From contig JAXDJL010000160.1 in the NCBI GenBank assembly GCA_034665685.1, forward strand, positions 1 to 31,027: 31,027 bases of DNA, read 5' to 3'. The position numbers were made by a program, and so were the translations under genes. Under the pieces are notes generated by a model. That model worked only from the letters and a program-made list of their open reading frames with translations, was not told where the DNA came from and searched no databases. The stretch comes from Actinomycetota bacterium. Its GTDB lineage: Bacteria; Actinomycetota; CADDZG01; WHSQ01. Positions within the stretch are counted from its first letter, which is position 1; each line of letters opens with the position of its first letter. Positions 6,348 through 28,060 of the stretch are shown here, one piece after another.

Positions 6348-6376
6348 AGTGTAGTCGCGAGGTCGTTTGATGTCAA
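6348..6376 (-). promoter_or_regulatory. Sigma70-type promoter of the LLM-1 / sugar-type ABC / amidase operon
   Basis: TTGACA (6376-6371), 17 nt, TACACT (6353-6348). Confidence 0.75.
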
Positions 6377-6380
6377 GATT
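6363..6380. promoter_or_regulatory. Candidate MarR (PecS/TamR-type) operator
   Basis: TCGTTTGATGTCAAGATT, 13/18 to TATCTTGACGTCAAGATA; overlaps the -35 box. Confidence 0.6.
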
Positions 6381-6427
6381 CTGAAGAAGAAGAGATTTAT
6401 CCCGGCGGGCGGATCCCGGGATCGACG

Positions 6428-7249
6428 CTACTCCTGCAGTACCCCTTCGTTTCTCAGGAGCTTCGTGATCTTGTCGACGCGGTCAAGGAATTCGGGTGTC
6501 TTTTGATCATCGAGCTTCCGCGGTCTCGCGAGATCGACGGGCAGGTCAACGAGAACACGACCCGGCCTCGGGGAGAAAACCACAATCCGGTCGGCTAGGA
6601 ACACGGCCTCAGTGATGCTGTGCGTGACAAAGATCACCGTCTTCTGATCGTTGAGCCACAAGGCCTGTAGGTCGATTCCCATCTGATCGCGTGTCAACGC
6701 GTCGAGGGCGGCGAACGGCTCGTCCATCAGCAACAGGGGCGGATCGTGCAGTAACGCCCGGCAGATGGCAACTCTTTGTTTCATACCCCCTGATAGGCCC
6801 GAAGGGTATGAGTCCTCGAAGCCCCCAAGCTTTGTCGACTCCATGAGCTCGAGAGCGCGAGCACGCGCCTTCTCCTTGTCCATCCTCCGCACTTCCGCCT
6901 GCATCATGATGTTCCGTAATGCAGTCCTCCACTCGAGCAGGGTCGGATCCTGAAAGACGATCCCCAGATCCGTATAGGGACGACGAACCTCATGGTCGCC
7001 AAGCCGAACGCGGCCGGTGGTGGGCTTTAGTAAACCGGCGACCGTCAGCAAGAGCGTGCTCTTCCCACACCCGCTCGGACCGAGGAAGACGACGAATTCG
7101 CCGGCTGCGATCTCTAGATCGACCTCTTTGAGCGCTTCGACGCGTCTGCCTTCGTTGGTTACGTAGGAATGGCCGACGCCTTGGATAGAGATCGGGACCC
7201 CCACAGGTGCTCGCACGTCCGGGGGGACACTCTGGATCTGGCGGCTCAT
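6428..7249 (-). CDS. ABC ATP-binding protein, NitT/TauT/SsuB family
   Basis: GPSGCGKST, LSGGMKQRVAICRAL, LLMDEPFAALDALTR, FVTHSITEAVFLADR. Confidence 0.96.
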   Translation of the reverse strand: MSRQIQSVPPDVRAPVGVPISIQGVGHSYVTNEGRRVEALKEVDLEIAAGEFVVFLGPSGCGKSTLLLTVAGLLKPTTGRVRLGDHEVRRPYTDLGIVFQDPTLLEWRTALRNIMMQAEVRRMDKEKARARALELMESTKLGGFEDSYPSGLSGGMKQRVAICRALLHDPPLLLMDEPFAALDALTRDQMGIDLQALWLNDQKTVIFVTHSITEAVFLADRIVVFSPRPGRVLVDLPVDLARPRKLDDQKTPEFLDRVDKITKLLRNEGVLQE

Positions 7250-8079
7250 GTGGTCTTGCTCCTCATGTATTCGCTTCCAAGACGCGCTGTCGCGCCTCTC
7301 GCGATGAGACTGGCCCCTCCATAGAACACCATCCCCAGCGCCGCGACGACCAGGATGGCGGCGAATGCCAAAGTTGTGTCGCGGTTCCCACTTGCTATGA
7401 GCAGGAGGTTCCCGAGGCCCTCAGCCGATCCAACAAACTCTGCGACGAGGGTCCCGACGACGGCGAGCGTGGCTGCCGTCCGGAAGGCCGCAGCGATGTA
7501 CGGGGCTGCCGAAGGAAACCAGATGTAGCGGACGAGACCGAACGAGCGGCAGCCGATCGAGCGGGCGAGTTGAGAGGTGGTAACGGTGATGCTCTCCACT
7601 CCGACGATGGTGGCAAGCGTGAGCGGGAAGAAAGTAACCAGGGTGGTGATGATGAGCTTGGGTGCGGCGCCAAAGCCCAGCCACGCGACGAACAGTGGCG
7701 CGAGAGCTACCTTTGGGATGCTCTGGATCGCGACGATCGGCGGCATGAGCACCCGACGTAGCGGCTTGTAACGGGCGATAACGAAGCCCAAGGGCACGCC
7801 GAAGGCCACGCTTAGGGCGAGGCCGGTGATCGCTATGAGCCCTGTCGCTTGCGCCTCATTGAAGAGCGCAGAGCGATTCTCGAACATGCTCGCGACGACT
7901 GTTTCGGGACTGGGGAGGATGTATTTCGGAATGTCGAATAGGGCAACGACTCCGAACCAGATGAGCCCGACCACAATCGCAGAGACCATCGGAAGCACCA
8001 AGCTCATCGATGTTCCGATCGCGCCCGAGCCAAACTGTCGGCCGGCCTCGCTCGCTGCCTGCTGAGACTCTGTTCTCAT
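7246..8079 (-). CDS. ABC permease, NitT/TauT/SsuC family
   Basis: PKYILPSP, SIPKVALAPLFVAWLGFG, EAA-type loop, LVAEFVGSAEGLG. Start moved to ATG 8079 (TGATG overlap with the upstream stop). Confidence 0.92.
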   Translation of the reverse strand: MRTESQQAASEAGRQFGSGAIGTSMSLVLPMVSAIVVGLIWFGVVALFDIPKYILPSPETVVASMFENRSALFNEAQATGLIAITGLALSVAFGVPLGFVIARYKPLRRVLMPPIVAIQSIPKVALAPLFVAWLGFGAAPKLIITTLVTFFPLTLATIVGVESITVTTSQLARSIGCRSFGLVRYIWFPSAAPYIAAAFRTAATLAVVGTLVAEFVGSAEGLGNLLLIASGNRDTTLAFAAILVVAALGMVFYGGASLIARGATARLGSEYMRSKTT

Positions 8080-8918
8080 CAGAACCCCTTCCCTGCACGC
8101 GTGCCGCGCAAGAGAAGGAGCTCGGCTACATCGACCGCTCGGACCATGGCCCAGCACATGATCATCAAAGAGATCAACGCGCCGTAGAGAAATCCGCCGT
8201 TGAGCTGTCTCGCCGACGTGACGATCATGTACCCAAGACCCTTGTCACTCCCCAGGTATTCGCCCAGTACCGCACCGATCGCCGCGAGTGTCACCCCCAG
8301 CCTGATTCCGCTAAGGAACGACGGCAACGCCACCCAGATCCGGAAACTGAAGAAGCGGCGTAGGGGGCCGGCACCCATGCTGGAGGCGAGCAACTGCTGT
8401 TCCCGAGTGAATCGCTCCAGGCCCACAACGGTGGCCACCAAGATCGGGAAGAAGGCGATCAGGGAAGCCATCACGATCTTTGGCGTCGCTGAGAAACCCC
8501 ACCAGATGATGAAGATCGGAGCCAGGGCCTCCTTGGGCGCCGACTGCGCGACGACCATGAGCGGGAAGACGGCCTTCCGCACGATGTCGACCGAGACGAT
8601 CAATGCGGCCCACGCAACCGCCGCCCCCGTTGCCACCGCAAGGCCCAGCAGGATCTCGGTCGCGGTCACACGAGCGTTGGTTAAGAAAAAGCTTGAGCTC
8701 GTGGTCAAAGCGGTCCATACCTCACTTGGTGGGGGGATCAGATATGTGGGGACGTCCCATATCGACGTGGCCGCCCACCAAACGAGGCCCACCAAAGCGA
8801 TGGTGACCGTGATGACGAGCATGCGGCGCAGAAGGCCGGCGATGATCGCCACCGGCCTCCTGCGCACATCTTGGCCTGATTCGTCGGTTCGAGCAGCGTT
8901 GCTACTCGATGAAGTCAT
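8079..8918 (-). CDS. ABC permease, NitT/TauT/SsuC family (second)
   Basis: PTYLIPPP, QSAPKEALAPIFIIWWGF, VLGEYLGSDKGLGYMI. Confidence 0.92.
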   Translation of the reverse strand: MTSSSSNAARTDESGQDVRRRPVAIIAGLLRRMLVITVTIALVGLVWWAATSIWDVPTYLIPPPSEVWTALTTSSSFFLTNARVTATEILLGLAVATGAAVAWAALIVSVDIVRKAVFPLMVVAQSAPKEALAPIFIIWWGFSATPKIVMASLIAFFPILVATVVGLERFTREQQLLASSMGAGPLRRFFSFRIWVALPSFLSGIRLGVTLAAIGAVLGEYLGSDKGLGYMIVTSARQLNGGFLYGALISLMIMCWAMVRAVDVAELLLLRGTRAGKGF

Positions 8919-9927
8919 TCGTGAAGTATTTCTCTGGTGCCTGTGGATCCTTAAGATCCGCGTATTGCGCGAGTGTGTCGAGCGTGTCCTGCCAGTCTTG
9001 CGTGTCCATGTAGCCGATCGGCTTGTCTTTCGTCCGCTCGGTGTGGAGGTTCGCGAGAACCTCCCGCAGAGCGATGGTTGCTTGGTCGGGGTTAACGGTC
9101 ATCGGGAAGGTATCCACGAGGTTCTGCACTGCAGCTTCTTGATCGTCCTGGCAGAACTCGAACCCACGTTGTACGGCGGCAACGAAACCACGCACCGCAT
9201 CCGGATTCTCGTCCGCGAACTTCCGGGAAACGATCAAGCCATTGCTCATGGTGACCACGCCGTAATCCGCGTAGTACTGGACCGCGATCTTGCCCGGGGC
9301 TTCCGCCTCAACGATCGGGAGGTCGGAGCTCGAATAACCCACGATCGCATCGACGCGCTTCTGTAGGAGGGCGGTCGGTTTCGCAGCGGGGTCAACATTG
9401 ACGATCTTGACGTCATCCGGGTTCACGTCGTTCGCGCTGAGGTATGCCGGCAGGAGTTGCACCGGCGCCTCGCCGGAGCTCGCACCAACGGTCTTCCCCA
9501 CAAGATCCTCCGGGCCCTCGATGCCTGACTCGGTCAGCGAGATGAGGACTGACGGATTCCTCTGATAGATGCCGGCGACCATCTCGATGTCGGCACCGTC
9601 ATCGATCGTGCTTGCAACGACGCCTGCGTCGGAGAATCCGAAGTCATCCGAACCATTGGCGACAAGCGTTGCAGCCGTCCCCGAGCCGGCCCCTTCACGG
9701 ATCGTCACGTCCAGGCCTTCATCGCGGAAGTACCCGTTGGCCTCGGCCGCGTAATAACAGGTATGCGATCCATCGGCGATCCAATCGAGGCGGTACGTCA
9801 GCGGGATCAGTTCGCCAGACCCGGAGTCGCTCGCTGTCGGCGAACCTCCGTCATCGCCACATGCAGCCACGAACAAACTCATTACGACGAGCAGGAGCAG
9901 GAGATACCGGTTTGCCTTCACGTGCAC
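8902..9927 (-). CDS. ABC substrate-binding lipoprotein, SsuA/THI5 (NMT1-like) family
   Basis: Lipobox FVAAC; RLDW...H..YYAAEANGYFRDEGLDVTIREGAGS; LVGKTVG. Start could be GTG 9927 or 9921. Confidence 0.92.
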   Translation of the reverse strand: MHVKANRYLLLLLVVMSLFVAACGDDGGSPTASDSGSGELIPLTYRLDWIADGSHTCYYAAEANGYFRDEGLDVTIREGAGSGTAATLVANGSDDFGFSDAGVVASTIDDGADIEMVAGIYQRNPSVLISLTESGIEGPEDLVGKTVGASSGEAPVQLLPAYLSANDVNPDDVKIVNVDPAAKPTALLQKRVDAIVGYSSSDLPIVEAEAPGKIAVQYYADYGVVTMSNGLIVSRKFADENPDAVRGFVAAVQRGFEFCQDDQEAAVQNLVDTFPMTVNPDQATIALREVLANLHTERTKDKPIGYMDTQDWQDTLDTLAQYADLKDPQAPEKYFTNDFIE

Positions 9928-10027
9928 TTCCTTCCTAGGAATTCATCGGCGTAAGACCCCACGGTCGTCGCCTCTGCCGGTAGCGCTGTTGTTCTCCTCC
10001 TTCTACTCGAGCCTCGAACGAATTTCG

Positions 10028-11083
10028 TTACTCGTAAACGAGAGGGCCCGGATCGCGCAGGATCTCCATCGTGATGCACTTCATGGCGTTGACCCCACCC
10101 TGCATGATTCCGTCGGAGTCGAACGGGATGACTTCGACACCCGCCTTCTCCACCTTGCGCATGGTCTCCTCAGCGCGTTTCGGAAGGATGACCTTTCCCG
10201 GTTCAAGCACGACGATGTTCGCGGGTGCGAACTTCTGATCGTCTTCTGGTATCTCGATGATCTCGAACTCGAGATCGCGCAGCCAGCAGTACGTCTCCCA
10301 CGGGAGGCACTTCGGGTAGACCAGAACCTTCTTGTGATCGAGAGGCGTGATCACCATGTCCGTGTGGAACTCACCGCCGGCCTCGAATGTGTCCATGATC
10401 GTGGCCAGGTTCATCACGTGAACCTCTTTGATTCCCGATGCATGGAGTGCGGGGAGGATCTGATCGATCCCTTCTTGGTTGGCGGCGCAAGAGGTCGCAG
10501 CCACCCAGACGTCGTCACTCAAGCCCACGAGCATGGGACCAACCTCCATGACCGCGTCGCCGTGGACGGTGTGGAGGATCGGACAACCGATTTTCGTGAC
10601 GAACTTCTGGAACTCGCGTTCCAGGCCTCGTTTGTATGACGCGTGGCCGAAGCGAGGGATGAGAGCGCCGCCGTTCAGGAACTTCACTTCCTCACACACG
10701 AAAAGCTTCCGCATCGGTCCGTGAGCGCCCCAGACATCTTCGAACTCCATCCAGTGGATCTTCACGTCGTTCTCTTCGAGGAGAGCGGCCCACTCCTGGT
10801 GATTCCGGATCAGGAGGTCGATGTCGGGCTTGGCCCGGTACCGCAGGAGGAAGAAGTTCGGGTCCTGCGACCACAGCGAGTTGGCCTCATGCTCGCTCGG
10901 CGCGACGAGTCCGACCTCGCGCAGCTTGCCGATCCCCGGCGCTCCCCACCGGCGCCCCCAGATGGCCTCGTACTCGTCGAGGTACGAGAACTCTCGAAGC
11001 TTGTAGACGTCGGGCGGGCTGCCCTGCTTGTAATCCGGGTATTCCGTTACGTCGAAGTCCTCTATCGACCTGTCAGGTGCCAC
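10028..11083 (-). CDS. Pentein-superfamily amidino hydrolase/transferase (DDAH / arginine deiminase-like), divergent
   Basis: KLREV N-terminal motif, ME (catalytic acid region), FHTD (His), NIVVLEPGKVI, C-terminal GGVNAMKCITMEILRD (Cys). GGAGG RBS before GTG. Confidence 0.85.
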   Translation of the reverse strand: MAPDRSIEDFDVTEYPDYKQGSPPDVYKLREFSYLDEYEAIWGRRWGAPGIGKLREVGLVAPSEHEANSLWSQDPNFFLLRYRAKPDIDLLIRNHQEWAALLEENDVKIHWMEFEDVWGAHGPMRKLFVCEEVKFLNGGALIPRFGHASYKRGLEREFQKFVTKIGCPILHTVHGDAVMEVGPMLVGLSDDVWVAATSCAANQEGIDQILPALHASGIKEVHVMNLATIMDTFEAGGEFHTDMVITPLDHKKVLVYPKCLPWETYCWLRDLEFEIIEIPEDDQKFAPANIVVLEPGKVILPKRAEETMRKVEKAGVEVIPFDSDGIMQGGVNAMKCITMEILRDPGPLVYE

Positions 11084-11178: not shown

Positions 11179-11196
11179 TCTCTCGACGTCAAACTA
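11179..11196. promoter_or_regulatory. Candidate MarR (PecS/TamR-type) operator
   Basis: TCTCTCGACGTCAAACTA, 14/18 to consensus; covers the -10 and predicted +1. Confidence 0.65.
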
Positions 11197-11219
11197 TGGG
11201 CGACGCGCATCACTGTCAA
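11191..11219 (-). promoter_or_regulatory. Sigma70-type promoter of the pentein / NitT-TauT ABC operon
   Basis: TTGACA (11219-11214), 17 nt, TAGTTT (11196-11191); the -35 overlaps the MFS stop codon. Confidence 0.7.
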
Positions 11220-12382
11220 GGTGATTGGGGCGAGACATCTGCCGCAAGGCCGATCGGATGCTCCGGAACAGGTGCCAAGAGCACGAGCGCCAACACCGCG
11301 CAAGCGGCCGCAACCCCCCCTGAGAGGGCGATCCCACCGGTAGCAAAGATCGGCTGGGCGAGGGCCGCTCCCACCGCCCGCCCCAGGCCCACGGACAGGA
11401 AAACTCCGGATAGAACCTTGTCCCGTGCCTGGGACATCTCGCTGATGAAGGGGACCGAGGCGACGAAAGACACCTCGTAGGAGACGATCCAGAGGGTCAC
11501 AACCCCTAGGCCCCCGAGCACACTCCCTCCAACGAGCGGGAACAAGAGATACATGAACGCACTCGCGGCCACGCCGGCCACCCACATCTTCTTCAGCCCG
11601 AAAGAGTCCGAGATGACTGCGACGAGCCCAGCTCCCACGAACTCCGCGACGAGGATCCCCAGGGTGAAGGCGCCGATCCCAGTGATCGAGAGCCCAAGCG
11701 ATCCCTCGAGCCACTGTCCGTAGACGACGAAGATGACTTCCGCCGCGAGGTTGAAGAGCGCAACGCAGGTCATGACCCGAAGCAGCCGCCCATCGATGGT
11801 CAGACGCTCTTTGCCTCGCCCGGTCTCGCTTCCGTCGGGCGGGATGCTTCGAGCGATCCAGATCGCGCCGACGGCGGCCATGGCGGCAACGAGGACGAAC
11901 GGCGCTCGCCAACCCCCAAGGACGATGAGATACGCAGCCAGGGGCACGATGAGGAGAGAAAGGGACCAGTTCAGCTCACTGATGCCGTAGACCCGACCGC
12001 GCTCCTTGTAAGGGACGCGGTCCGCGAACCAAGCCTGCGTGGCCAGGTCGAGGCCGGGACGGGCGATGCCGACGACGATCATCGCGACTGCCGCTACCAG
12101 AAAGATGTCGGTCGCCGCAACTACGAGACAGGCCACACCCACGACCGCAACCCCAAGGGACATCACCCTTCGCCGCCCGTAGCGCTCGGCAGCGCTAGCG
12201 GAAACCGGCGAGGTCAACGCCCCCAGGTTCCTGACCGCGATCACGCCGGCTATGTGTCCCGGTGTCACATGCAGGCCCCGGGCGATTACGGGGAGGAACG
12301 GATAAACCATTCGCAGCGCGGCGCTCGCGGATAAACGAGCGAAGAAGGTGCTGCCGAGAGCGCGGCGGATCTCAGGCTGCAT
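11216..12382 (-). CDS. MFS transporter
   Basis: About 12 hydrophobic segments, motif A-like AERYGRRRVM and SDSFGLKK, PYKERGRVYG. Confidence 0.9.
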   Translation of the reverse strand: MQPEIRRALGSTFFARLSASAALRMVYPFLPVIARGLHVTPGHIAGVIAVRNLGALTSPVSASAAERYGRRRVMSLGVAVVGVACLVVAATDIFLVAAVAMIVVGIARPGLDLATQAWFADRVPYKERGRVYGISELNWSLSLLIVPLAAYLIVLGGWRAPFVLVAAMAAVGAIWIARSIPPDGSETGRGKERLTIDGRLLRVMTCVALFNLAAEVIFVVYGQWLEGSLGLSITGIGAFTLGILVAEFVGAGLVAVISDSFGLKKMWVAGVAASAFMYLLFPLVGGSVLGGLGVVTLWIVSYEVSFVASVPFISEMSQARDKVLSGVFLSVGLGRAVGAALAQPIFATGGIALSGGVAAACAVLALVLLAPVPEHPIGLAADVSPQSP

Positions 12383-12413
12383 GCGCGAAGCCTAGACGTG
12401 GGTTGTCAGCCGG

Positions 12414-17108: not shown

Positions 17109-17114
17109 ACCGAG

Positions 17115-20359: not shown

Positions 20360-22018
20360 TTATCCGTCTGTGGCGCGAGTCAGGTTCACCGGCTCGCCTT
20401 CTGTCACCAAGAAAACGTCCTCCACCCCGATGCAGTGATCGCGGAAAGGCCACTGGAATTCGGCGGCTCCGACCATCCCGGGCTCGAGCGTGCCGGCGGC
20501 GCCTAGTTTCAGTCCCACGGTCGCAGGTTCTTGTTTCCCGAGGAGATGTCCGATATCCCTCTTGAAACCATCGGTCAGCGACGGCCCCGGGGGGGCGAAG
20601 CCCGCCGAAACGATCTCGTTGCGATGGGGTTCGAGCGCCGCCATCCCCGCTCGGAAAACCTCTTCTCCGGTGACTCCCGGTTTGCAGGAGCCGATCGCAT
20701 CCGTCACGAGCGTCTGGTGGAGGAGGTCATAGAGCCAGCGACCCTCATCGCTGCCGACGACGGACCGGGTGATATCCGAGACCGCGCGATACATGCCGAA
20801 CTCGTCGTACAGGAGCAGGCCTGCGTCGATCTTGAGGCTGGTCAGCCCCTTCAAGCTGAAGTCCGTCGCCCGCGCCGGAAGAAGGGAGCGGTTCCCGGCA
20901 TGGGTGTGCGTGAAGTAGCTCTCCACACGTATCGGAAGTGACTCGTCGGTGATGATCCCGCGGACCGTTTGCCGATACCGGCGGTACGCGTCGAGCTCGG
21001 TGACGTCACCACCGCGGTCCAGCACATTGGTCACCAGCTGCAGGGCCGCCATCACACCCCGCAACGTCACATCCGCGGCAACCACGTAGTACGGGACGTC
21101 ACGCCACGAGCGCCGTTCACGCCACCTGCGAAGAAGATCGGTCGCCGGCCTCGCCGTAGCGAGATCGATCCCGAACCCACGCGCCGCCGCCACGCTCAAG
21201 TCGCGCTCTTCGTAACCGATGACACCGATGGTTGCGAACCGAGACGCGTAGTCGGTCTCGCGCCGGTTCTCTGCCGGAGCCAGCCATGGAAGTTCGCGCC
21301 GCGACAGAACCTGGACTTCGTCCGAGTCCCTCTCGACTATGGCCCACACGTCGTCCCTCAACGTCCCCATCGGGAAGCCCGTCAGCTCCTGGACGTTCAG
21401 CGGAGAGCTTGCCACGAGGACATCGATACCGGCGCCCTCCAACATCTCGTCGAGGGGGCCGAACGAGTCGTCGCTATCGCCGTCGAGGAAAGGCGCCAGG
21501 GCGGCCGTGACACCGAGGGCCTCGATCCTTGGGCGCGCATGCCCCACGATCGTTGCGAAACTGCGTGCGAAAGAAGCTGCCACGGCGGGCCGGGTGATCG
21601 AGTAGTGATAGCCGGGCACCACGAACAGCGTCGGCTCTTCGGGTCGGAACCCAGCTTCGTTCACCAGCCGGTCGTGTGGTTCGACCGGCATCTTCGAGTC
21701 GAGGCGGGCCGAAGGGGCGGCGACGGATTTCGCTGCGGCCACCACATCTTCGACGGCGTCGGTAGGTTCGAGGCTCGCATCAAAAGTGAAATATGGGTTG
21801 TGGAACAGGACCCTAACGTCGCTGTTCCACTCGAGCTCAACGTTCGGTCGGTCGATCTCTTTCATGAGCAGCGTCGGGATGCCGTCATTGGGGACATAAA
21901 CGACCGGGAGCTCGCTCTTGAACCCATCCAGCGAGAGGTGTGCGGGGAGCGACTGGTACCACGCGTCGAAACCGGTGTGTTGGGCGACGACCTCGGGATC
22001 CGCGCTGAGATATCCCAT
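20360..22018 (-). CDS. M24 (pita-bread) family hydrolase with an extended N-terminus
   Basis: Creatinase_N-like GIDVLVASSPLNVQELTG; metal-ligand motifs KIDAG, SDITRS, IGHLLG, AAEF, GVEDVFLVT. Confidence 0.85.
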   Translation of the reverse strand: MGYLSADPEVVAQHTGFDAWYQSLPAHLSLDGFKSELPVVYVPNDGIPTLLMKEIDRPNVELEWNSDVRVLFHNPYFTFDASLEPTDAVEDVVAAAKSVAAPSARLDSKMPVEPHDRLVNEAGFRPEEPTLFVVPGYHYSITRPAVAASFARSFATIVGHARPRIEALGVTAALAPFLDGDSDDSFGPLDEMLEGAGIDVLVASSPLNVQELTGFPMGTLRDDVWAIVERDSDEVQVLSRRELPWLAPAENRRETDYASRFATIGVIGYEERDLSVAAARGFGIDLATARPATDLLRRWRERRSWRDVPYYVVAADVTLRGVMAALQLVTNVLDRGGDVTELDAYRRYRQTVRGIITDESLPIRVESYFTHTHAGNRSLLPARATDFSLKGLTSLKIDAGLLLYDEFGMYRAVSDITRSVVGSDEGRWLYDLLHQTLVTDAIGSCKPGVTGEEVFRAGMAALEPHRNEIVSAGFAPPGPSLTDGFKRDIGHLLGKQEPATVGLKLGAAGTLEPGMVGAAEFQWPFRDHCIGVEDVFLVTEGEPVNLTRATDG

Positions 22019-22021
22019 CCG

Positions 22022-22777
22022 TTACTGCGCGGTCCAGCCGCCGTCGACCAGGAGATGATGACCCGTGACGTAAGAAGATTCCTCCGAGGCAAGGAACGTG
22101 ACGGCGCCCACAACGTCACTCGGCTCGCCGACCCTGCCCAGAGGGGTCCGGTCGAGGACGAACTTCTCGTTCTCCGCCTTGGCGAGCCACTCCTCGTTAA
22201 GACTCGTTCGGATGTATGCCGGTCCCACTGCATTGACACGGATCGTCGGGGCCCAGTTGACGGCCAGAACTCGGGTCATGTGGATCAACGCAGCCTTGGA
22301 TGCGGAATAAGAGACGGACGCCCCTGTCGTGACCTCACCCGCGACTGACGTGATGTTGACGACGTTCCCGCCGGCCCCATCGAGCATCTTTCTTGCGACC
22401 GCTTGCGTCAGGAAAAACGCTCCGCGAACGTTTATCTCGAACACCTCGTCCCACGACTCAGGTTCCATCTCCAAGGGGTTCCCGCGCACGATCGTTCCCG
22501 CGGCGTTCACCAGCACATTGATAGGTCGCCACTCCCATGCCAAGGCGACCGCAGCCTGGATGGAGGCCAGGTCACGGAGATCTGCGGGCACGCTCAAGAA
22601 GTCGGTACCGAGCCCCCGCAGCTCGTTGCCAAGCTCGTCGAGTGCCGACTCGGTCCGCGCGAGACCGACCACGGAGGCCCCTTCCCGGGCAAGACCACGA
22701 GCGATCTCTCGACCTATCCCACGGCTCGCGCCGGAGACCAGGACCGTGCGGCCTGCGAGTCTCCCGGACGGCGTCAC
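22022..22777 (-). CDS. SDR family NAD(P)-dependent oxidoreductase
   Basis: SGASRGIG, LVNAAG, NITS, YSASKAA, RVNAVGP, TGHHLLVDGG. Confidence 0.95.
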   Translation of the reverse strand: MTPSGRLAGRTVLVSGASRGIGREIARGLAREGASVVGLARTESALDELGNELRGLGTDFLSVPADLRDLASIQAAVALAWEWRPINVLVNAAGTIVRGNPLEMEPESWDEVFEINVRGAFFLTQAVARKMLDGAGGNVVNITSVAGEVTTGASVSYSASKAALIHMTRVLAVNWAPTIRVNAVGPAYIRTSLNEEWLAKAENEKFVLDRTPLGRVGEPSDVVGAVTFLASEESSYVTGHHLLVDGGWTAQ

Positions 22778-22790
22778 GCGCTCGTCATGA

Positions 22791-23816
22791 CTAGTTCGGC
22801 GCGAAGAGGTCCATCAAGCGCGTTGCTTGGTGCTTGGCGGCAGGTCGAAGGATCGGCAGCTGCACGCCGACATCTCTGAACTCCTGAACCCGCTTCTGAA
22901 CCTCCTCGGGCGTGCCACTGGCGGTCATGCCCTCGACGTACGAATCCGGCACCGCTTTGATGAGTTCCTCTTTTCCGCCGCGCGCCCAAGCTTCCTCGAA
23001 CTTGGGGATGTCTTCCTTCTTGATGTACGGCTCGCCGACGCGCATCTTGGGGCCTGCGATGAACGGGAGTTGGATAGGGTCGAGTTTGCTGGCGACCTCC
23101 CACTTGATGGCATCGACCGCCTTCTGATGGTCGTCCTCCACCGAGCAATTGATCAACTGGGCAACCTTGAAGTCGGCCCAGTCACGTCCGGAGTCGTCCA
23201 CCGCCTTGCGAACGATCTTCAACGCGTTGGCGGAGTACTCCGGAGAGCAGATCGCGTTCAACAGCACACCGTCTCCGATCGTGCCGGCGATCTTTAGCCC
23301 GGTCGTGCTTGTTGCCGGGATGTACATCGGGATGTACCTACGACGTGGTTCGAAGCCGAGCTTCACGTTGGAGAACTTCACGGTTTCCCCGTCGTAATCG
23401 ACCTCGCCGCCGGCCAGGATCGCCCTGATCGACTGAATCCAGTCGCGCAAGGTCGCGCCGGGGTTGATCGACTCGAGCCCGTGGCGCTTCGCATGCGTGT
23501 TGGTGCACGCCCCCGGTGCAACCATCAGCCGGCCGTCGGCGATCTCATCGAGCGACGCGAAGGTCTGAGCCATGACGAGCGGCGTACGAAGGCGAACTAT
23601 CTGAGTGCACCCGATCTGCATACGCTTAGTGGAGAGTGCGAACGCCGTAAGAGCGGACACAGAGTCCCTCATCAGCTCGATCGTCTCCGAGAAGAACCCG
23701 ATCTCGAACCCAGCCTCATCGGCGCGCTTGAACCACTCCGCCATCTCCTTGACATCGGCCGCCGGGTCGTACCCGGCAGCAAACCCGACCCGGTCGTTGT
23801 CCATTGACGCAATCAC
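22791..23816 (-). CDS. LLM-class oxidoreductase, Mer-like (LLM-2)
   Basis: ADEAGFEIGFFSE, RTPLVMAQTFASLDEIADGRL, IPMYIPAT, AGTIGDGVLLN, GTPEEV. Alternative start ATG 23804. Confidence 0.88.
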   Translation of the reverse strand: MIASMDNDRVGFAAGYDPAADVKEMAEWFKRADEAGFEIGFFSETIELMRDSVSALTAFALSTKRMQIGCTQIVRLRTPLVMAQTFASLDEIADGRLMVAPGACTNTHAKRHGLESINPGATLRDWIQSIRAILAGGEVDYDGETVKFSNVKLGFEPRRRYIPMYIPATSTTGLKIAGTIGDGVLLNAICSPEYSANALKIVRKAVDDSGRDWADFKVAQLINCSVEDDHQKAVDAIKWEVASKLDPIQLPFIAGPKMRVGEPYIKKEDIPKFEEAWARGGKEELIKAVPDSYVEGMTASGTPEEVQKRVQEFRDVGVQLPILRPAAKHQATRLMDLFAPN

Positions 23817-23860: not shown

Positions 23861-23888
23861 ATTTTAACGTTTAGTATCTTGATGTCTA
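23861..23888 (-). promoter_or_regulatory. Promoter of the LLM-2 / SDR / M24 / dehydrogenase / aldolase / xdhC / mocA operon
   Basis: TAGACA (23888-23883), 16 nt, TAAAAT (23866-23861), in an AT-rich patch. Confidence 0.55.
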
Positions 23889-23892
23889 GATA
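23875..23892. promoter_or_regulatory. Strongest candidate MarR operator (autoregulatory site)
   Basis: TATCTTGATGTCTAGATA, 14/18 self-palindromic, in the divergent region next to the MarR gene; a weaker overlapping site TATTTTAACGTTTAGTAT lies at 23860-23877. Confidence 0.78.
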
Positions 23893-23947: not shown

Positions 23948-24466
23948 GTGGCCGAGGACTACGTCGACGAGATCTTGCGGCAGTGGAGCCGCGAACGCCC
24001 TGACCTGGATGTATCGCCGATGGGGGTGATCGGGCGACTCTCGCGGCTGACGCGCCATCTCGAAAGGGCGATCGAGGAGACATTCCAGAGCCACGGCCTC
24101 GGAGCGGGAGGCTTCGACGTTCTCGCGGCGCTTCGCCGCTCGGGCAAGCCCTATCGTCTCTCTCCCACCGAGCTTTACAACTCTCTCCTGATCTCCTCGG
24201 GCGCTATGACGAACCGGATCGACAGGCTCGAGGAACAGGGACATGTGGTGCGCGCCCCGGATGCCCACGATCGTCGAAGCATATCGGTCGCGTTGACGCC
24301 GAAGGGGAAGAAGACGATCGATGACGCGGTTCGCGAACACACGGAACGGGAGCACAATCTCTTGGCGAGCCTCAGTTCGCAGGAACAGAAGCAGCTTGCC
24401 GGTCTGCTGAGAGAGCTCCTACTGCAGTACGACGGCCAGGGCGTCCGGGAGAAAGCTCCCTCCTAA
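23948..24466 (+). CDS. MarR-family repressor of the PecS/TamR/HucR (UrtR) class
   Basis: DYVDEILRQWSRERPDLDVSPMGVIGR, FDVLAALRRSG, SGAMTNRIDRLE, DRRS. Start moved to GTG 23948 (GGAGG 5 nt upstream). Confidence 0.92.
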   Translation: MAEDYVDEILRQWSRERPDLDVSPMGVIGRLSRLTRHLERAIEETFQSHGLGAGGFDVLAALRRSGKPYRLSPTELYNSLLISSGAMTNRIDRLEEQGHVVRAPDAHDRRSISVALTPKGKKTIDDAVREHTEREHNLLASLSSQEQKQLAGLLRELLLQYDGQGVREKAPS

Positions 24467-24948
24467 CCCGGGTCCCGGGGTAGCCGTCCCGAAGCTTTCC
24501 TCACTGCCGCCACGATGTTCTGGTAACCGGTACACCGACAGACGTTTCCACTGAGACGCTCCCGGATCTCGTCATCCGTTGGATCGGGCTTTTCCCGGAG
24601 CAGCTCGGTGATCGTCATCAGAAACCCCGGAGTGCAGAACCCGCACTGGAGGCCGTGCTCCTCCGCGAAGGCCGCCTGAAGCGGGGCGAGCTCGCCGCCG
24701 ACAGGGGCGAGGCCTTCCACTGTTTCGAGCTGGTGGTCGTGCGCTTGCACAGCGAAGAGCAGACACGACCTGACGCTCCGCCCGTCCATGAGGATCGTGC
24801 ATGCACCACAAACACCGTGTTCGCACCCGAGATGAGTACCGGTGAGCCGTAACCTGTCCCGCAGGAAGTCGGCCAGGGTCATGCGCGGATCAACGGACTC
24901 TCGAACCTCTCGACCGTTGATCCGGAAAGAGATCTCGACGGAGCTCAT
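24463..24948 (-). CDS. coxS: Mo-hydroxylase small [2Fe-2S]2 subunit (CoxS/CutS-like)
   Basis: GCEHGVCGACT, LQCGFCTPG, GNVCRCTGY. Start moved to ATG 24948 (ATGA overlap with the coxM stop). Confidence 0.93.
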   Translation of the reverse strand: MSSVEISFRINGREVRESVDPRMTLADFLRDRLRLTGTHLGCEHGVCGACTILMDGRSVRSCLLFAVQAHDHQLETVEGLAPVGGELAPLQAAFAEEHGLQCGFCTPGFLMTITELLREKPDPTDDEIRERLSGNVCRCTGYQNIVAAVRKASGRLPRDPG

Positions 24949-25817
24949 CGGCCACCATCCTCTGCTCGGTCCACGGCTAGTCGCATCGCGCGCTTCATTA
25001 TGAGAGCCGCACAATGGCGCCTGAACTCACTCGACCCATGGATATCCCCCGTCGGATCGATCTCGTCTTGGAGAGCTACACCGATCGCGTCCAAGACGTC
25101 ATCTCCCCCGTCCGAGCCGATCATCATCGCGGCCGCCTCGGAGCGCACCGGAGTCCCACCTACTCCAACAAGCGCCACTCGGGCATCGCTGATCACGCCT
25201 CCCGAACGATGCACCACTGCGGCCGATCCGACTATTCCGAAGTCTCCGTGACGTCGCGAGAACTCCTCGAACGCCGACCCTGCCCCTCGCTCGGGGAGAG
25301 GAAACCGAATCTCGGTAAGCACCTCCTCGGGCTCGAGAGCAGTTGTGAAATACGACTGGAAGAAGTCAGTAGCCGCGATCGTCCGCCGCCCGCCTGGCCC
25401 CGAAGCTTCGAACTCGGCATCCAAAGCCAATGCCAGAGCCGGCCACTCAGCCGCGGGATCGGAATGGGCACAGCTGCCGCCCACCGTTCCTCGATTGCGT
25501 ATCGCCACATGGCCGAGCACCGACATCGCTTCTCGGATCATCGGAGAGCGGTCCTGCAGGGCCGCATCGAGCTCGATATCGCGGTGGGTGGTCATCGCGC
25601 CGATCCGAACGACGTCGTCGCCGTGTCGCACGTACCTCAGCTCGGCGACGCGGCCCAGGTCGACCACGACCGACGGGCGGGCGAGTCGCAATGCCATGAG
25701 CGGCACGAGGCTCTGGCCGCCTGCCAACAGCTTGGCTTCGTCACCGTGTTGCTTGAGGAGCGAGACAGCCTCATCGACCGTATCCGGAGCGGCGTAATCG
25801 AACGGTGGGGGCTTCAC
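24945..25817 (-). CDS. coxM: Mo-hydroxylase FAD-binding subunit (CoxM/CutM-like)
   Basis: LLAGGQSLVP, IRNRGTVGGSCAHSDPAAE, RRHGDFG, DIHGSSEFRRH. Confidence 0.93.
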   Translation of the reverse strand: MKPPPFDYAAPDTVDEAVSLLKQHGDEAKLLAGGQSLVPLMALRLARPSVVVDLGRVAELRYVRHGDDVVRIGAMTTHRDIELDAALQDRSPMIREAMSVLGHVAIRNRGTVGGSCAHSDPAAEWPALALALDAEFEASGPGGRRTIAATDFFQSYFTTALEPEEVLTEIRFPLPERGAGSAFEEFSRRHGDFGIVGSAAVVHRSGGVISDARVALVGVGGTPVRSEAAAMMIGSDGGDDVLDAIGVALQDEIDPTGDIHGSSEFRRHCAALIMKRAMRLAVDRAEDGGR

Positions 25818-26425
25818 GTTGTTCGGCGACCGAAGATGCGCTTCAAGAACCTAGTGAAAGCCCGGAACAGGGCACCGAGCAGAAGGCGTCCACCCTTGAG
25901 CGGAGGGGCGGCCGTGGGGGGAGATTGCATTTGGGGTTGCGAGGCCGGGTCTCCGGCCGACACGCCCGGCTGCGCAGGAACGATCTCGAGCTTGCTCGCT
26001 ACGCAGCGGGCGAAATCGTCGATCATGCGCGAGGAAACATCTTCGATCATCCCCCTGCCGTACTGCGCGACCGCCCCCGCGAGTTTCAGGTCCGTGCTGA
26101 TCGATACCCTGGTGCCCTGCTCGTAAGCCTCCAGCACGGACACGACCGTTGCTTGCGCGCTCCCCTTCCCGCGGGTCTCCTTGCCCTTAGCTCGAAGTGA
26201 CACGCGACGCGACGCGACGTCGCGTTCCTCGAGTTCGACTTCGCCGGCGAACGATAGGCGGATGGGCCCCAACTTGACCGACATCTTGCCCTTCCAGTGG
26301 GAGTCATCGACCACCTCTGTTAACTCCGCTCCGGCGACGCAGGGGACGATGCGCTCCACATCGAGGAGCAGCTCCCACGTCTCCTCAGGGGGCGCAGGCA
26401 CTATGAATTCGTTCTTTATCTCCAC
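25814..26425 (-). CDS. coxG: CoxG/SRPBCC family protein
   Basis: PEETWELLLDVERIVPCVAGAEL, GKMSVKLGPI, AQYGRGMIEDV; Pro/Ala-rich linker and basic amphipathic C-terminus. Confidence 0.9.
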   Translation of the reverse strand: MEIKNEFIVPAPPEETWELLLDVERIVPCVAGAELTEVVDDSHWKGKMSVKLGPIRLSFAGEVELEERDVASRRVSLRAKGKETRGKGSAQATVVSVLEAYEQGTRVSISTDLKLAGAVAQYGRGMIEDVSSRMIDDFARCVASKLEIVPAQPGVSAGDPASQPQMQSPPTAAPPLKGGRLLLGALFRAFTRFLKRIFGRRTT

Positions 26426-26443
26426 CTGGATACGACTCTTTCG

Positions 26444-27949
26444 TCAGTTCGTCGGGAAGCCGAGGTTGACCGAGCTTCCTTGGGTATCCGGCCACCGTGC
26501 AGTCACGGCTTTGGTCCGGGTGTAGAAGTTGATGCCCTCTTTCCCGTGTACATGTGAGTCTCCGAACAACGATTGCTTCCAACCGCCGAAGGAGAAGAAG
26601 GCCATGGGAACGGGGATGGGAATATTGATTCCCACCATCCCTACTTCAACCTCGTTCTGGAAGTGACGGGCGGCGGCGCCGTCCGAAGTGAAGATCGCCG
26701 TTCCGTTCCCATACTCGTTCTTGTTGATCAGCTGTATGGCCTCAGCGAGTGACTCGACGCGTAGCACGCTGAGGACCGGGCCGAAGATCTCATTGCGATG
26801 TATCTCCATCTCTGGGCGAACGTCGTCGAACAACGTTGGGCCCAGCCAGAAACCTTCGGAGCCGGGAGCTGCTGGAACCTCGGGCGACCGGCCGTCCACC
26901 ACCAGGCGGGCGCCTTCGCCCCGACCGGTCTCGACGAACGCTGCGACGCGATCGCGATGCTCACCGGTAACCAACGGCCCCATGTCCGCCGCTTCGTCCG
27001 AGGCCGGCCCAAGCTTGATCTCGCCGATCCGCTGCACCAACCGGTCGATCAGGGGGTCCGCGGCGTCACCGACGGCCACGATCGCGGAGATCGCCATGCA
27101 ACGTTGCCCGCTCGACCCGTATCCCGCGGAAACAGCAGCATCTGCGGCGAAGTCCAGGTCGGCGTCGGGCATCACGACCATGTGGTTCTTCGCGCCGCCA
27201 AGAGCCTGAACGCGCTTCCCGTGCTCGGCAGCCGTCTGATAGATGTGGCGGGCCACGGGGGTAGACCCGACCGAAGATACAGCCGCCACGTCCGGGTGCT
27301 CTAGCAAGCGATCGACCGCTACCCGGTCCCCCTGGATCACATTGAAGACTCCTTCGGGAAGCCCCGCTTCGTGGAACCATTCGGCGAGAAGCAGGGCTGC
27401 GGAAGGGTCCTTCTCGGACGGCTTTAGGACGAACGTGTTCCCGCATGCGATGGCTATGGGGAACATCCACATCGGAACCATCACCGGGAAGTTGAACGGC
27501 GTGATGCCCGCGACTACCCCGACAGGCTGCCGGATCGAATAGGCATCGATCGACCTAGACACGTTCTCGGAGAAGTCGCCCTTCAGGAGATGCGGGATAC
27601 CACAAGCGAATTCGACAACCTCCTGGCCGCGCGCAACCTCGCCCATCGCGTCGGACAGCACTTTGCCGTGTTCGGAGGAGATGACTCGGGCAAGATCCTT
27701 GCCCCGCTCATCCAGGATCCCGCGATACGCGAACAAGATGCGAGTCCGACGGGTCAGCGGGGAATCCCTCCACGAATCGAACGCTCGGGCAGCGGAGTGC
27801 ACCGCGGCGTCGACTTCGTCGGGCGATGCGAACGCCACCTCGGCCTGAACGGCACCGGTAGCGGGATCGAAGACGGGACCGGACCTGTCGGCGCGCCCGG
27901 CCTGGCGTTTCCCATCGATCCAATGAGGGATCAGCACTCTCTCCGTCAC
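26444..27949 (-). CDS. mmsA: CoA-acylating (methyl)malonate-semialdehyde dehydrogenase
   Basis: GITPFNFPVMVPMWMFP, LKPSEKDP, QALGGAKNH, GSSGQRCMA, EIFGPVL, GGWKQSLFGD; AGGAGG RBS before GTG. Confidence 0.94.
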   Translation of the reverse strand: MTERVLIPHWIDGKRQAGRADRSGPVFDPATGAVQAEVAFASPDEVDAAVHSAARAFDSWRDSPLTRRTRILFAYRGILDERGKDLARVISSEHGKVLSDAMGEVARGQEVVEFACGIPHLLKGDFSENVSRSIDAYSIRQPVGVVAGITPFNFPVMVPMWMFPIAIACGNTFVLKPSEKDPSAALLLAEWFHEAGLPEGVFNVIQGDRVAVDRLLEHPDVAAVSSVGSTPVARHIYQTAAEHGKRVQALGGAKNHMVVMPDADLDFAADAAVSAGYGSSGQRCMAISAIVAVGDAADPLIDRLVQRIGEIKLGPASDEAADMGPLVTGEHRDRVAAFVETGRGEGARLVVDGRSPEVPAAPGSEGFWLGPTLFDDVRPEMEIHRNEIFGPVLSVLRVESLAEAIQLINKNEYGNGTAIFTSDGAAARHFQNEVEVGMVGINIPIPVPMAFFSFGGWKQSLFGDSHVHGKEGINFYTRTKAVTARWPDTQGSSVNLGFPTN

Positions 27950-27986
27950 GGCGCCTCCTACTCGCGCCTAGTCGCGGCGCATGATT

Positions 27987-28004
27987 TGTCTTAAGCTCAA
28001 ACCA
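27987..28004. promoter_or_regulatory. Weak candidate operator upstream of mmsA-coxG-coxM-coxS
   Basis: TGTCTTAAGCTCAAACCA, only 11/18; overlaps the minus-strand TATGGT -10-like box (28006-28001). Confidence 0.35.
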
Positions 28005-28060
28005 TATATGAACACGATTCCGAGACTCCTGGGCCCCCTTGGTCAATTTTCGTTACAGCG

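What the first reader, a model, noticed from the sequence alone, without database searches (positions are those of the whole stretch)
6348..28006. One 18-bp operator at almost every promoter: a roughly 25-gene regulon for a PecS/TamR/HucR-class MarR repressor
Seen: TCGTTTGATGTCAAGATT (6363), TCTCTCGACGTCAAACTA (11179), TATCTCTACCTTAAGATA (13101), TAGCTCGACGTTGAGATA (13150), TATCTTCATCTTAAGATT (16479), TATCTTGATGTCTAGATA (23875) and a weak TGTCTTAAGCTCAAACCA (27987). All but the eamA start-codon site are intergenic, and each overlaps a -35, -10 or +1. The MarR at 23948 keeps the Trp, Asp and two Arg positions (QW, FDVL, LRRSG, TNRI) that define the urate-responsive class (HucR W20/D73/R80/R106). 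Known: those regulators bind 18-bp palindromes, and the characterised local targets are mostly one divergent gene (uricase, pecM, tam, mftP). Inference: here one such repressor co-ordinates seven transcription units on both strands, which defines the pathway's membership and hints that the inducer is a urate-like oxidised N-heterocycle.
Basis: partly seen in the sequence, partly recalled or inferred. Interest (0 to 1): 0.88.

Follow-up and report, generated by a model that had tools for sequence, protein, structure and literature searches.

The report
UrtR operator regulon on catabolic island
A soil actinobacterial genome carries a urate-sensor-type (UrtR/PecS/MftR/HucR) MarR repressor whose known 18-bp operator recurs at six promoters of a 27-kb N-heterocycle degradation cluster, which makes it a new, unusually multi-operon member of a known regulator family and not a new kind of system.

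Summary
All seven 18-mers are where stated. A matrix trained only on other genomes puts four window sites as the four best hits in the 2.07-Mb genome, and six among the best eight. No intergenic hit of 12 bits or more occurs outside the window. The weak seventh site scores at background level.

The motif (TATCTTGAYRTCAAGATA) is not new. It is the published UrtR operator (T-xx-CT-x8-AG-xx-A), nearly identical to PecO1 and MftrO. The MarR at 23948-24466 is a clear UrtR: E 1.8e-39 to MftR, with the effector-pocket Trp, Asp, Arg and His, the three DNA-binding Arg and the S-S-G-A core element all present.

What is unusual is the layout. In 56 of 70 long UrtR loci the boxes sit in one place beside the gene. 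Here they head five to six operons, about 22-26 genes. A 13-member UrtR clade, linked to orthologous LLM, Mo-hydroxylase and SDR genes, shows the same multi-box layout with boxes before the orthologues.

The likely mechanism is promoter occlusion relieved by urate, xanthine or a related oxidised heterocycle. Binding, transcription starts and effector are untested. Verdict: new member of a known kind, moderate interest.

The parts
23948..24466 (+). UrtR-family MarR repressor gene. Starts at GTG 23948, with GGAGGA 5-6 nt upstream.
   Evidence: Pfam MarR_2. Matches MftR 8YLF at E 1.8e-39, PecS 8YLH at 2.8e-36 and HucR 2FBK at 2.6e-22. It keeps W13, D57, R64, H131, S83-S84-G85-A86, R90, R102 and R110. 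It is the only UrtR match found in the genome.
23875..23892 (.). Box 6, TATCTTGATGTCTAGATA. Shared operator of the divergent marR and LLM2-operon promoters.
   Evidence: 26.8 bits, the best hit in the genome; 6 of 6 core positions. It overlaps the -35 of the tool-called promoter TAGACA-16-TAAAAT on the minus strand at 23888-23861.
13101..13118 (.). Box 3, TATCTCTACCTTAAGATA, 36 nt upstream of the DUF1989 ATG at 13064.
   Evidence: 23.2 bits, rank 2 in the genome, 6 of 6 core positions. In L014 the orthologous DUF1989-MoCoL operon has a box at 13664.
13150..13167 (.). Box 4, TAGCTCGACGTTGAGATA, 45 nt upstream of the Mo-hydroxylase large-subunit start at 13213.
   Evidence: 19.7 bits, rank 4, 6 of 6 core positions. 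Boxes lie 35-47 nt upstream of MoCoL orthologues in L108, L109 and L157.
16479..16496 (.). Box 5, TATCTTCATCTTAAGATT. It abuts the mocA stop codon and covers the eamA ATG at 16487.
   Evidence: 21.4 bits, rank 3. On the minus strand, TAGAAT followed by 6 nt and then ATG fits a leaderless promoter, which would place the box at about -9 to +9 (read by eye).
11179..11196 (.). Box 2, TCTCTCGACGTCAAACTA. Upstream of the operon made of the pentein (ADI-like) gene and the NMT1-type ABC importer.
   Evidence: 16.1 bits, 5 of 6 core positions. On the minus strand the layout is TTGACA, 17 nt, then TAGTTT, which is the first six bases of the box.
6363..6380 (.). Box 1, TCGTTTGATGTCAAGATT. Upstream of the operon made of LLM1, a sugar-type ABC transporter and an isochorismatase.
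   Evidence: 15.4 bits, 4 of 6 core positions. It contains the -35 of the tool-called promoter TTGACA-17-TACACT on the minus strand at 6376-6348.
27987..28004 (.). Site 7, TGTCTTAAGCTCAAACCA. Candidate or relic operator between the ALDH operon and an LLM1 pseudogene.
   Evidence: Only 9.6 bits. About 0.01 such hits are expected in this 341-bp gap. It shares 12 of 18 bases with box 1 read in the gene's direction, including the TCAAAC variant half-site. The operons carrying the medium and small hydroxylase subunits are preceded by boxes in L014, L108 and L012.
16497..23816 (-). Operon under box 6: LLM2, SDR, M24-like, Glu/Leu-DH-like, DHDPS-family, XdhC and MocA.
   Evidence: Pfam; gene gaps of 50 nt or less. 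LLM2 orthologues (64-72% identity) have a box within 100 nt upstream in L019, L096, L108 and L157.
15510..16487 (-). EamA-family transporter under box 5.
   Evidence: Pfam EamA. Only 26% identical to a PecM-like EamA from a typical UrtR locus.
13213..15522 (+). Mo-hydroxylase large subunit under box 4.
   Evidence: Pfam MoCoBD_1/2. The nearest solved structures are quinoline 2-oxidoreductase 1T3Q and 6-hydroxypseudooxynicotine dehydrogenase 7DQX.
11216..13064 (-). DUF1989-MFS operon under box 3.
   Evidence: Pfam.
6428..11083 (-). Operon under box 2: pentein (ADI-like), NMT1 substrate-binding protein, two permeases and an ATPase.
   Evidence: Pfam.
804..6301 (-). Operon under box 1: LLM1, ABC ATPase, permease, substrate-binding protein and isochorismatase-family hydrolase.
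   Evidence: Pfam. LLM1 start reassigned to ATG 6301.
24463..27949 (-). Possible seventh unit behind site 7: ALDH (MMSDH-type), CoxG, FAD medium subunit and 2Fe-2S small subunit.
   Evidence: Pfam and NCBIfam. Whether it is regulated is inferred only.
28073..28240 (+). LLM1 pseudogene fragment that shares its upstream region with site 7.
   Evidence: tblastn: 79% identity to LLM1 residues 9-64, with an in-frame stop.

Best explanation
The MarR at 23948-24466 is a UrtR-family repressor.

DNA binding. As an apo dimer it binds each 18-bp box. By homology with the PecS-DNA and MftR-DNA crystal structures, the S-S-G-A core element of the recognition helix reads C4/T5 and the wing Arg reads T1.

Repression. 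The boxes overlap the predicted -35, -10 or +1 of six promoters, so the bound repressor would exclude RNA polymerase. The units affected are:
- its own gene;
- the LLM2...MocA operon;
- the hydroxylase large-subunit gene;
- the DUF1989-MFS operon;
- eamA;
- the pentein plus ABC-importer operon;
- the LLM1 plus ABC plus isochorismatase operon;
- possibly the ALDH-CoxG-M-S operon.

Induction. An effector binds the inter-subunit pocket formed by W13, D57, R64 and H131. It is most likely urate, xanthine or a closely related oxidised N-heterocycle that is imported or made by the Qor-like Mo hydroxylase. Binding releases the repressor and the whole island is derepressed together.

Shown in silico: family membership, operator identity, enrichment, and positional conservation in related clusters.
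Inferred: binding itself, repression, transcription start sites, effector identity.
For: - Family: MftR E 1.8e-39, PecS 2.8e-36, HucR 2.6e-22, with all pocket and DNA-contact residues aligned. These residues are conserved across 169 homologues.
- Operator: the window consensus TATCTTGACGTCAAGATA fits the published T-xx-CT-x8-AG-xx-A. It differs at 2 positions from PecO1 (TATCTTGACTTCAAGGTA) and at 3 from MftrO (TGTCTCTACGTCAAGATA) (PMC11602129).
- Enrichment: with the foreign-trained matrix, the four best hits in the genome and six of the eight best are in the window, all intergenic. There are 0 intergenic hits of 12 bits or more elsewhere. Poisson probability about 1e-12.
- Only one UrtR was found in the genome.
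- Promoters: both sigma-70-like promoters that the scan calls in 6000-25000 overlap boxes. TTGACA-17-box layouts occur at sites 2 and 6, and a leaderless layout at eamA.
- Conservation: a 13-member UrtR clade (support 0.82) sits beside LLM2, MoCoL, SDR, FAD-M and Fer2-S orthologues. Boxes lie upstream of those orthologues in L014, L019, L096, L108, L109/L157 and L012.
- Every gap of 100 nt or more that heads an operon in the cluster holds a box.
Against: - There are no experimental data, and no RNA run holds this DNA.
- Boxes 1 and 2 match only 4 and 5 of the 6 core positions. Their scores (15-16 bits) are also reached by two hits inside coding sequence elsewhere in the genome.
- Site 7 is at background level.
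- The box itself contains TTGAC, so its coincidence with predicted -35 elements is not independent evidence.
- The genome is 82.5% complete, so other targets may exist.
- The effector is unknown. In five of nine cluster-linked relatives the pocket Asp is replaced.
Confidence: 0.82

Rival explanations
1. Only the four high-scoring boxes (3, 4, 5 and 6) work. The regulon is then about 12 genes: marR, the LLM2 operon, MoCoL, DUF1989-MFS and eamA. Sites 1, 2 and 7 would be decayed operators or chance matches that happen to include promoter-like TTGAC.
For: Sites 1 and 2 score 15.4 and 16.1 bits with 4/6 and 5/6 core matches, a level also reached by two hits inside coding sequence elsewhere. The 95th percentile of the best score in a shuffled window is 15.2 bits. 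Site 7 scores 9.6 bits.
Against: No intergenic hit of 12 bits or more exists in about 179 kb outside the window, yet sites 1 and 2 both lie in operon-heading gaps of about 130 nt. Each overlaps a good -35 or -10. Sites 1, 2 and 7 share the same variant half-site, TCAAAC.
Confidence: 0.12
2. The boxes are real, but the local MarR is part of a wider regulon. It would have further targets in the unassembled 17% of the genome, or would act with a second regulator. The island would then not define the regulon or the pathway membership.
For: The MAG is 82.5% complete and split into 358 contigs. PecS is described as a master regulator of virulence genes and TamR represses several genes (PMC5487221).
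Against: In the assembled 2.07 Mb, the off-window hits lie in or beside unrelated genes: an adenylate-cyclase/AAA protein, an acyl-CoA synthetase, LigD and a two-component system. Relatives of the same clade also concentrate their boxes inside the cluster.
Confidence: 0.1
3. The repeated 18-mers are chance or generic promoter sequence with no dedicated regulator.
For: The motif is AT-rich and contains a -35-like TTGAC, and intergenic DNA is AT-richer.
Against: Poisson probability about 1e-12. The motif matches an operator defined by experiment. The same motif lies upstream of UrtR genes in most of the 160 loci fetched from other genomes and metagenomes (138 hold at least one box of 14 bits or more) and upstream of orthologous cluster genes.
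Confidence: 0.02

Closest known systems
MftR (Burkholderia thailandensis; PDB 8YLF/8YLG/8YLK)
   Same: It is the best solved homologue (E 1.8e-39). It has the same alpha0 Trp, alpha2 Asp and Arg, core element S-S-G-x and three DNA-binding Arg. Its operator MftrO (TGTCTCTACGTCAAGATA) differs from the window consensus at 3 of 18 positions. It is a repressor released by urate, and less well by xanthine.
   Different: MftR's local target is the divergent efflux gene mftP, and it otherwise acts on scattered targets. Here the boxes are concentrated on one catabolic island, and the divergent neighbour is an LLM oxidoreductase operon.
PecS-PecM (Pectobacterium, Dickeya, Agrobacterium, Vibrio)
   Same: Same family. 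The operator PecO1 (TATCTTGACTTCAAGGTA) differs from the window consensus at 2 of 18 positions. It is autoregulated from a divergent intergenic region (PMC11602129, PMC12288460).
   Different: The canonical layout is a pair of boxes between pecS and a divergent EamA pump. This was seen in 5 of 9 sampled loci, and 56 of 70 long loci have a single box location. Here marR is divergent to LLM2. The only EamA gene lies 7.4 kb away with its own box and is just 26% identical to a PecM-like protein.
HucR (Deinococcus radiodurans; PDB 2FBK)
   Same: D73, R80 and R106 align with D57, R64 and R90. It controls a catabolic enzyme acting on its own ligand.
   Different: HucR binds one site and controls one divergent uricase gene (PMC5487221). 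No uricase, HIU hydrolase or OHCU decarboxylase was found in this MAG.
TamR (Streptomyces coelicolor)
   Different: Its targets are scattered TCA-cycle genes and its ligands are citrate and trans-aconitate, not a purine.
BpsR / NicR, MarR-type repressors of nicotinate catabolism
   Same: This is what the system works like. A MarR repressor holds several promoters of an N-heterocycle catabolic cluster (nicC, nicE). It is released by 6-hydroxynicotinate, the product of the pathway's first step (PMC6837509); that this step is catalysed by a molybdenum hydroxylase is from my own knowledge.
   Different: These are not UrtR proteins. They have different ligand-pocket residues and a different operator, and they share only the MarR superfamily.

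Membership tests
UrtR (urate-responsive MarR subfamily) | N-terminal alpha0 helix carrying the invariant Trp (PecS W24, MftR W11, HucR W20) | tested here: met
   W13 in DYVDEILRQW aligns with the Trp of MftR and PecS. Trp occupies this column in 168 of 169 homologues.
UrtR (urate-responsive MarR subfamily) | alpha2 Asp and Arg (PecS D68/R75; HucR D73/R80), exclusive to the family | tested here: met
   D57 (in FDVL) and R64 (in LRRSG) align with HucR D73 and R80 and with the PecS residues.
UrtR (urate-responsive MarR subfamily) | alpha5 His that contacts urate (PecS H142) | tested here: met
   H131 (in REH) falls in the aligned column. His is present in 104 of 169 homologues.
UrtR (urate-responsive MarR subfamily) | Three invariant DNA-binding Arg and the major-groove core element T/S-S-G-T | tested here: met
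   R90, R102 and R110 are present. The core element reads S-S-G-A; the fourth residue is Ala, as in 160 of 169 homologues.
UrtR (urate-responsive MarR subfamily) | Operator T-xx-CT-x8-AG-xx-A in the regulator's own promoter region | tested here: met
   Box 6 matches 6 of 6 positions and lies 55 nt upstream of the marR start. Consensus taken from PMC11602129.
UrtR (urate-responsive MarR subfamily) | Urate or xanthine weakens DNA binding | not testable with these tools
   Needs EMSA or fluorescence polarisation with purified protein.
pecS-pecM divergent regulator/efflux pair | A PecM-type EamA pump transcribed divergently from the regulator | tested here: not met
   The divergent neighbour is LLM2. 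The only EamA gene is 7.4 kb away and 26% identical to a PecM-like protein.
hucR-uricase pair | A uricase gene adjacent to, or controlled by, the regulator | tested here: not met
   No PF01014 hit in the 82.5%-complete genome. PF09349 and PF00576 are also not found.

The most novel reading that the evidence does not exclude
The cluster-linked UrtR clade marks an undescribed, uricase-independent catabolic route for urate or a urate-like oxidised N-heterocycle. The route would combine a Qor-like Mo hydroxylase, a Mer-like (probably F420-dependent) LLM reductase and an SDR with variable ring-opening enzymes. Clade members whose pocket Asp has changed to Ala, Tyr, Thr or Gly would be natural sensors for other heterocycles. 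If so, the box map gives the gene list of an unknown pathway and a family of ready-made biosensors.
Probability: 0.25. Interest if true: 0.65.

Novelty: new member of a known kind. Interest (0 to 1): 0.45.

Why it matters
The operator map gives an independent definition of which roughly 22-26 genes belong together in an uncharacterised N-heterocycle degradation island. It is based on regulation, not on homology.

It also points to a testable inducer class: urate, xanthine or related oxidised heterocycles.

Finally, it shows that one UrtR sub-clade has moved from the usual regulator-plus-efflux-pump pair to controlling whole catabolic clusters. The ligand pocket varies among its relatives. That is useful for pathway discovery and for extending HucR-type biosensors, but the mechanism and the operator are already known.

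Tried and rejected
- Window-trained matrix. It is circular, so I replaced it with a pattern from site 6 alone and a matrix trained on foreign genomes.
- A second box at 23860 beside site 6. It scores only 8.7 bits and its 15-nt offset is unlike the 27-42-nt pairs seen elsewhere. Rejected.
- Half-sites CTGTCAAG(A/G)TG near sites 2 and 6. They read better as the -35 TTGACA of promoters whose -10 is the start of the box.
- Off-window hits on C302, C238, C144, C5 and C139. They lie in or beside unrelated genes and I treat them as chance.
- eamA as the displaced pecM orthologue. Not supported: 26% identity to one PecM-like EamA, no significant match to another.
- Transcript evidence. No RNA run holds this DNA; only soil and permafrost DNA runs do.
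- Close relatives carrying the same cluster. The best MarR identity is 68% in genomes and 62% in metagenomes. The LLM2 orthologue was not found in 60 relatives of the same genus, family or class at E 1e-60.
- DNA alignment of the LLM1 and psi-LLM1 upstream regions. Nothing aligns beyond the box.
- Pathway identity. Not resolved. Canonical urate-oxidation genes were not found. Relatives carry HyuAB and UbiD-like genes instead of the window's pentein, M24 and DUF1989 set.
- Literature search. No report of a UrtR controlling a Mo-hydroxylase cluster turned up in the held library.


Full report
**Setting.** The window is a complete 31,027-bp contig (C160) of a soil MAG: 2.07 Mb, 358 contigs, 82.5% complete. 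The nearest labelled relatives of its MarR are Actinomycetes or Actinomycetota MAGs. Pfam and NCBIfam annotation gives a dense cluster, mostly on the minus strand:
- 1-513 (+): arginase family.
- 804-6301 (-): isochorismatase family, sugar-type ABC transporter, LLM1.
- 6428-11083 (-): NMT1-type ABC importer and a pentein (ADI-like) protein.
- 11216-13064 (-): MFS and DUF1989.
- 13213-15522 (+): Mo-hydroxylase large subunit. Its nearest solved structures are quinoline 2-oxidoreductase and 6-hydroxypseudooxynicotine dehydrogenase.
- 15510-16487 (-): EamA.
- 16497-23816 (-): MocA, XdhC, DHDPS family, Glu/Leu-DH-like, a 552-aa M24-like protein, SDR and LLM2. LLM2's nearest solved structure is the F420-dependent Mer.
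- 23948-24466 (+): MarR.
- 24463-27949 (-): 2Fe-2S small subunit, FAD medium subunit, CoxG, and an ALDH of the methylmalonate-semialdehyde dehydrogenase type.
- 28291-28734 (+): RidA.

**The observation.** All seven 18-mers are present once each at the stated coordinates. I avoided judging the sites with a matrix built from those same sites.
- A degenerate palindrome taken from site 6 alone (at least 14 of 18 matches) recovers exactly the six strong sites. Shuffles give 0.22, and the other 2.04 Mb holds 11.
- I then trained a matrix on 68 boxes that match the literature core and lie within 200 bp upstream of UrtR homologues in 51 other genomes. With it, window sites 6, 3, 5 and 4 are the four best hits in the whole genome (26.8-19.7 bits). 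Sites 2 and 1 are ranks 7 and 8 (16.1 and 15.4 bits).
- Outside the window there is no hit of 12 bits or more in about 179 kb of crudely called intergenic DNA.
- The higher off-window hits lie in or beside unrelated genes.
- The Poisson probability of six hits of 15 bits or more in 31 kb is about 1e-12.
- Site 7 scores 9.6 bits, which is background level.

**What the motif is.** Song et al. (NAR 2024, PMC11602129) solved PecS-DNA and MftR-DNA complexes. They give the UrtR consensus as T-xx-CT-x8-AG-xx-A, with PecO1 = TATCTTGACTTCAAGGTA and MftrO = TGTCTCTACGTCAAGATA. The window consensus TATCTTGACGTCAAGATA is the same operator. Sites 3, 4 and 6 match 6 of 6 core positions, sites 2, 5 and 7 match 5 of 6, and site 1 matches 4 of 6. 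The operator is therefore known, not new.

**The regulator.** The MarR is closest to MftR 8YLF (E 1.8e-39), PecS 8YLH (2.8e-36) and HucR 2FBK (2.6e-22). Numbering from GTG 23948, the alignments place:
- W13 on the alpha0 Trp;
- D57 and R64 on HucR D73/R80 (PecS D68/R75);
- H131 on PecS H142;
- S83-S84-G85-A86 on the T/S-S-G-T core element;
- R90, R102 and R110 on the three DNA-binding Arg.

Across 169 homologues these columns are almost invariant, except the Asp (145 of 169) and the His (104 of 169). It is the only UrtR found in this genome. Every family feature that sequence can test is met. Ligand response cannot be tested here.

**Placement at promoters.**
- The scan tool calls only two sigma-70-like promoters in 6000-25000, and both overlap boxes. 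These are TTGACA-17-TACACT (minus strand, 6376-6348; the box 1 sequence supplies the -35) and TAGACA-16-TAAAAT (minus strand, 23888-23861; box 6 supplies the -35).
- This is not fully independent evidence, because the box contains TTGAC.
- By eye, sites 2 and 6 both show TTGACA, a 17-nt spacer, and then the first six bases of the box acting as the -10 (TAGTTT, TATCTA).
- At eamA, the sequence TAGAAT plus 6 nt plus ATG 16487 fits a leaderless promoter, with box 5 at about -9 to +9.
- LLM1 starts at ATG 6301, preceded by GAGGG, and not at TTG 6376. Box 1 is therefore intergenic.
- Every gap of 100 nt or more that heads an operon carries a box. The one box-free gap of that size (9928-10027) lies inside an operon.

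**Comparison with other loci.**
- I fetched 160 UrtR loci from genomes and metagenomes. The usual picture is two boxes 27-42 bp apart just upstream of the gene and nothing else. Among 70 loci of at least 15 kb, 56 have one box location, 7 have none, 6 have two and 1 has three.
- Of nine sampled divergent neighbours, five are EamA (PecM-like). The others are aconitase, PhzF, DUF3891 and one protein with no Pfam match.
- The window, with five or six box locations, is at the extreme.
- It is not alone, though. The window MarR falls in a 13-member clade (support 0.82). In this clade the neighbours are orthologues of LLM2 (64-72% identity), MoCoL (44-56%), SDR, FAD-M and Fer2-S, and the boxes sit before those genes.
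- Examples: L108 has boxes at 5095 before LLM2, at 11291 between SDR and MoCoL, and at 13523 before a UbiD-like-M-S operon. L019 has boxes at 11448 between SDR and LLM2-MoCoL and at 5987 before HyuAB. L096 has boxes at 1362 before LLM2-marR and at 8868 before HyuAB. L014 has four locations, including ones before DUF1989-MoCoL and before M-S. L109/L157 and L012 show the same pattern.
- The LLM2 orthologue was not found in 60 relatives of the same genus, family or class, so the module is patchy and island-like.

**Site 7.** The score alone does not support it. Three indirect points favour it.
1. Only about 0.01 hits of that strength are expected in the 341-bp gap.
2. Read in the gene's direction, it shares 12 of 18 bases with box 1, including the TCAAAC variant half-site that site 2 also has.
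3. The operons for the medium and small hydroxylase subunits are preceded by boxes in three relatives.

I rate it as a possible weak or relic operator.

**Mechanism.** Repression would be by promoter occlusion, with negative autoregulation from box 6, and the island would be derepressed as a unit when the effector fills the W13/D57/R64/H131 pocket. Because all four pocket residues are kept, urate or xanthine are the default candidates. Several observations make a pathway-specific urate-like heterocycle equally plausible:
- the hydroxylase is Qor-like;
- uricase, HIU hydrolase and OHCU decarboxylase were not found;
- the pocket Asp is replaced by A, Y, Y, T and G in five of nine cluster-linked relatives.

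Functionally the arrangement resembles BpsR and NicR. These are MarR repressors of several nic promoters, released by 6-hydroxynicotinate, the hydroxylated pathway intermediate (PMC6837509).

**Novelty and score.** The regulator family, its operator and multi-gene regulons (TamR; PecS as a master regulator of virulence genes; PMC5487221) are all known. What is new is a UrtR sub-clade attached to Mo-hydroxylase/LLM catabolic islands with one box per operon, of which this window is the most elaborate example. I found no report of this in the held literature. I class it as a new member of a known kind, with interest 0.45.

Noticed in passing
window 28073-28240 (+): Pseudogene fragment of an LLM1 paralogue: 79% amino-acid identity to LLM1 residues 9-64, with an in-frame stop. 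It sits in the gap upstream of the ALDH operon. Site 7 lies about 44 nt upstream of its inferred start.
   Followed up: yes
L014, L019, L096, L105, L108 (MarR homologues): In the cluster-linked UrtR clade, the 'invariant' alpha2 Asp of the urate pocket is replaced by A, Y, Y, T and G respectively. The Trp, the Arg and all DNA-contact residues are kept. This suggests that ligand specificity has diversified on a constant operator.
   Followed up: partly
L019:6069-9828, L096:5013-8857, L108:7430-9961 and 13573-15036, L012:1804-3276: Related clusters place UrtR boxes before ATP-dependent hydantoinase/oxoprolinase HyuA/HyuB genes (L019, L096) and before a UbiD-like decarboxylase that heads the FAD-M/Fer2-S operon (L108; the L012 copy is 81% identical). 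L108 also carries a HyuB gene, with no box called in front of it. The window has pentein, M24 and DUF1989 genes instead.
   Followed up: partly
window 16441-16457 (-): GC-rich hairpin followed by GTTTTTCG, lying inside codons 11-16 of the eamA reading frame just downstream of box 5. It could be a terminator or attenuator for read-through from mocA, or a coding coincidence. Terminator-like hits are not enriched in the region.
   Followed up: no
window 11214-11219 and 23912-23917 (-): The same layout appears twice: TTGACA, a 17-nt spacer, then the first six bases of the box acting as the -10. At site 2 the TTGACA contains the stop codon of the upstream MFS gene.
   Followed up: partly
L012:3340 and L012:15794: The identical 18-mer TTCTTCTACGTCAAGATT occurs twice. 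One copy lies upstream of the UbiD-like gene at 1804-3276. The other lies upstream of a similar-sized ORF (14258-15730), not itself compared, that heads the hydroxylase large-subunit operon.
   Followed up: partly
G000 (whole MAG): No Pfam hit for uricase, OHCU decarboxylase or transthyretin/HIU hydrolase in the 82.5%-complete genome, although it carries a urate-sensor-type regulator.
   Followed up: partly
L017-L091 (typical UrtR loci): The spacing of the paired boxes upstream of UrtR genes varies with lineage. It is 42 bp in cyanobacterial and Eremiobacterota loci, about 33 bp in Ilumatobacter and Acidimicrobiales loci, and 27 bp in relatives of the window's own family and class (L003, L004, L010).
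   Followed up: no
window 22791-23816 (-): Among solved structures, LLM2 is closest to the F420-dependent methylene-H4MPT reductase Mer (E 1e-33). The protein Atlas holds it starting from residue 5 (ATG 23804), so the true start may be 23804 and not GTG 23816.
   Followed up: partly
window 1-513 (+): A truncated arginase-family (ureohydrolase) gene at the contig edge, next to the box-1 operon. No box is visible for it.
   Followed up: no
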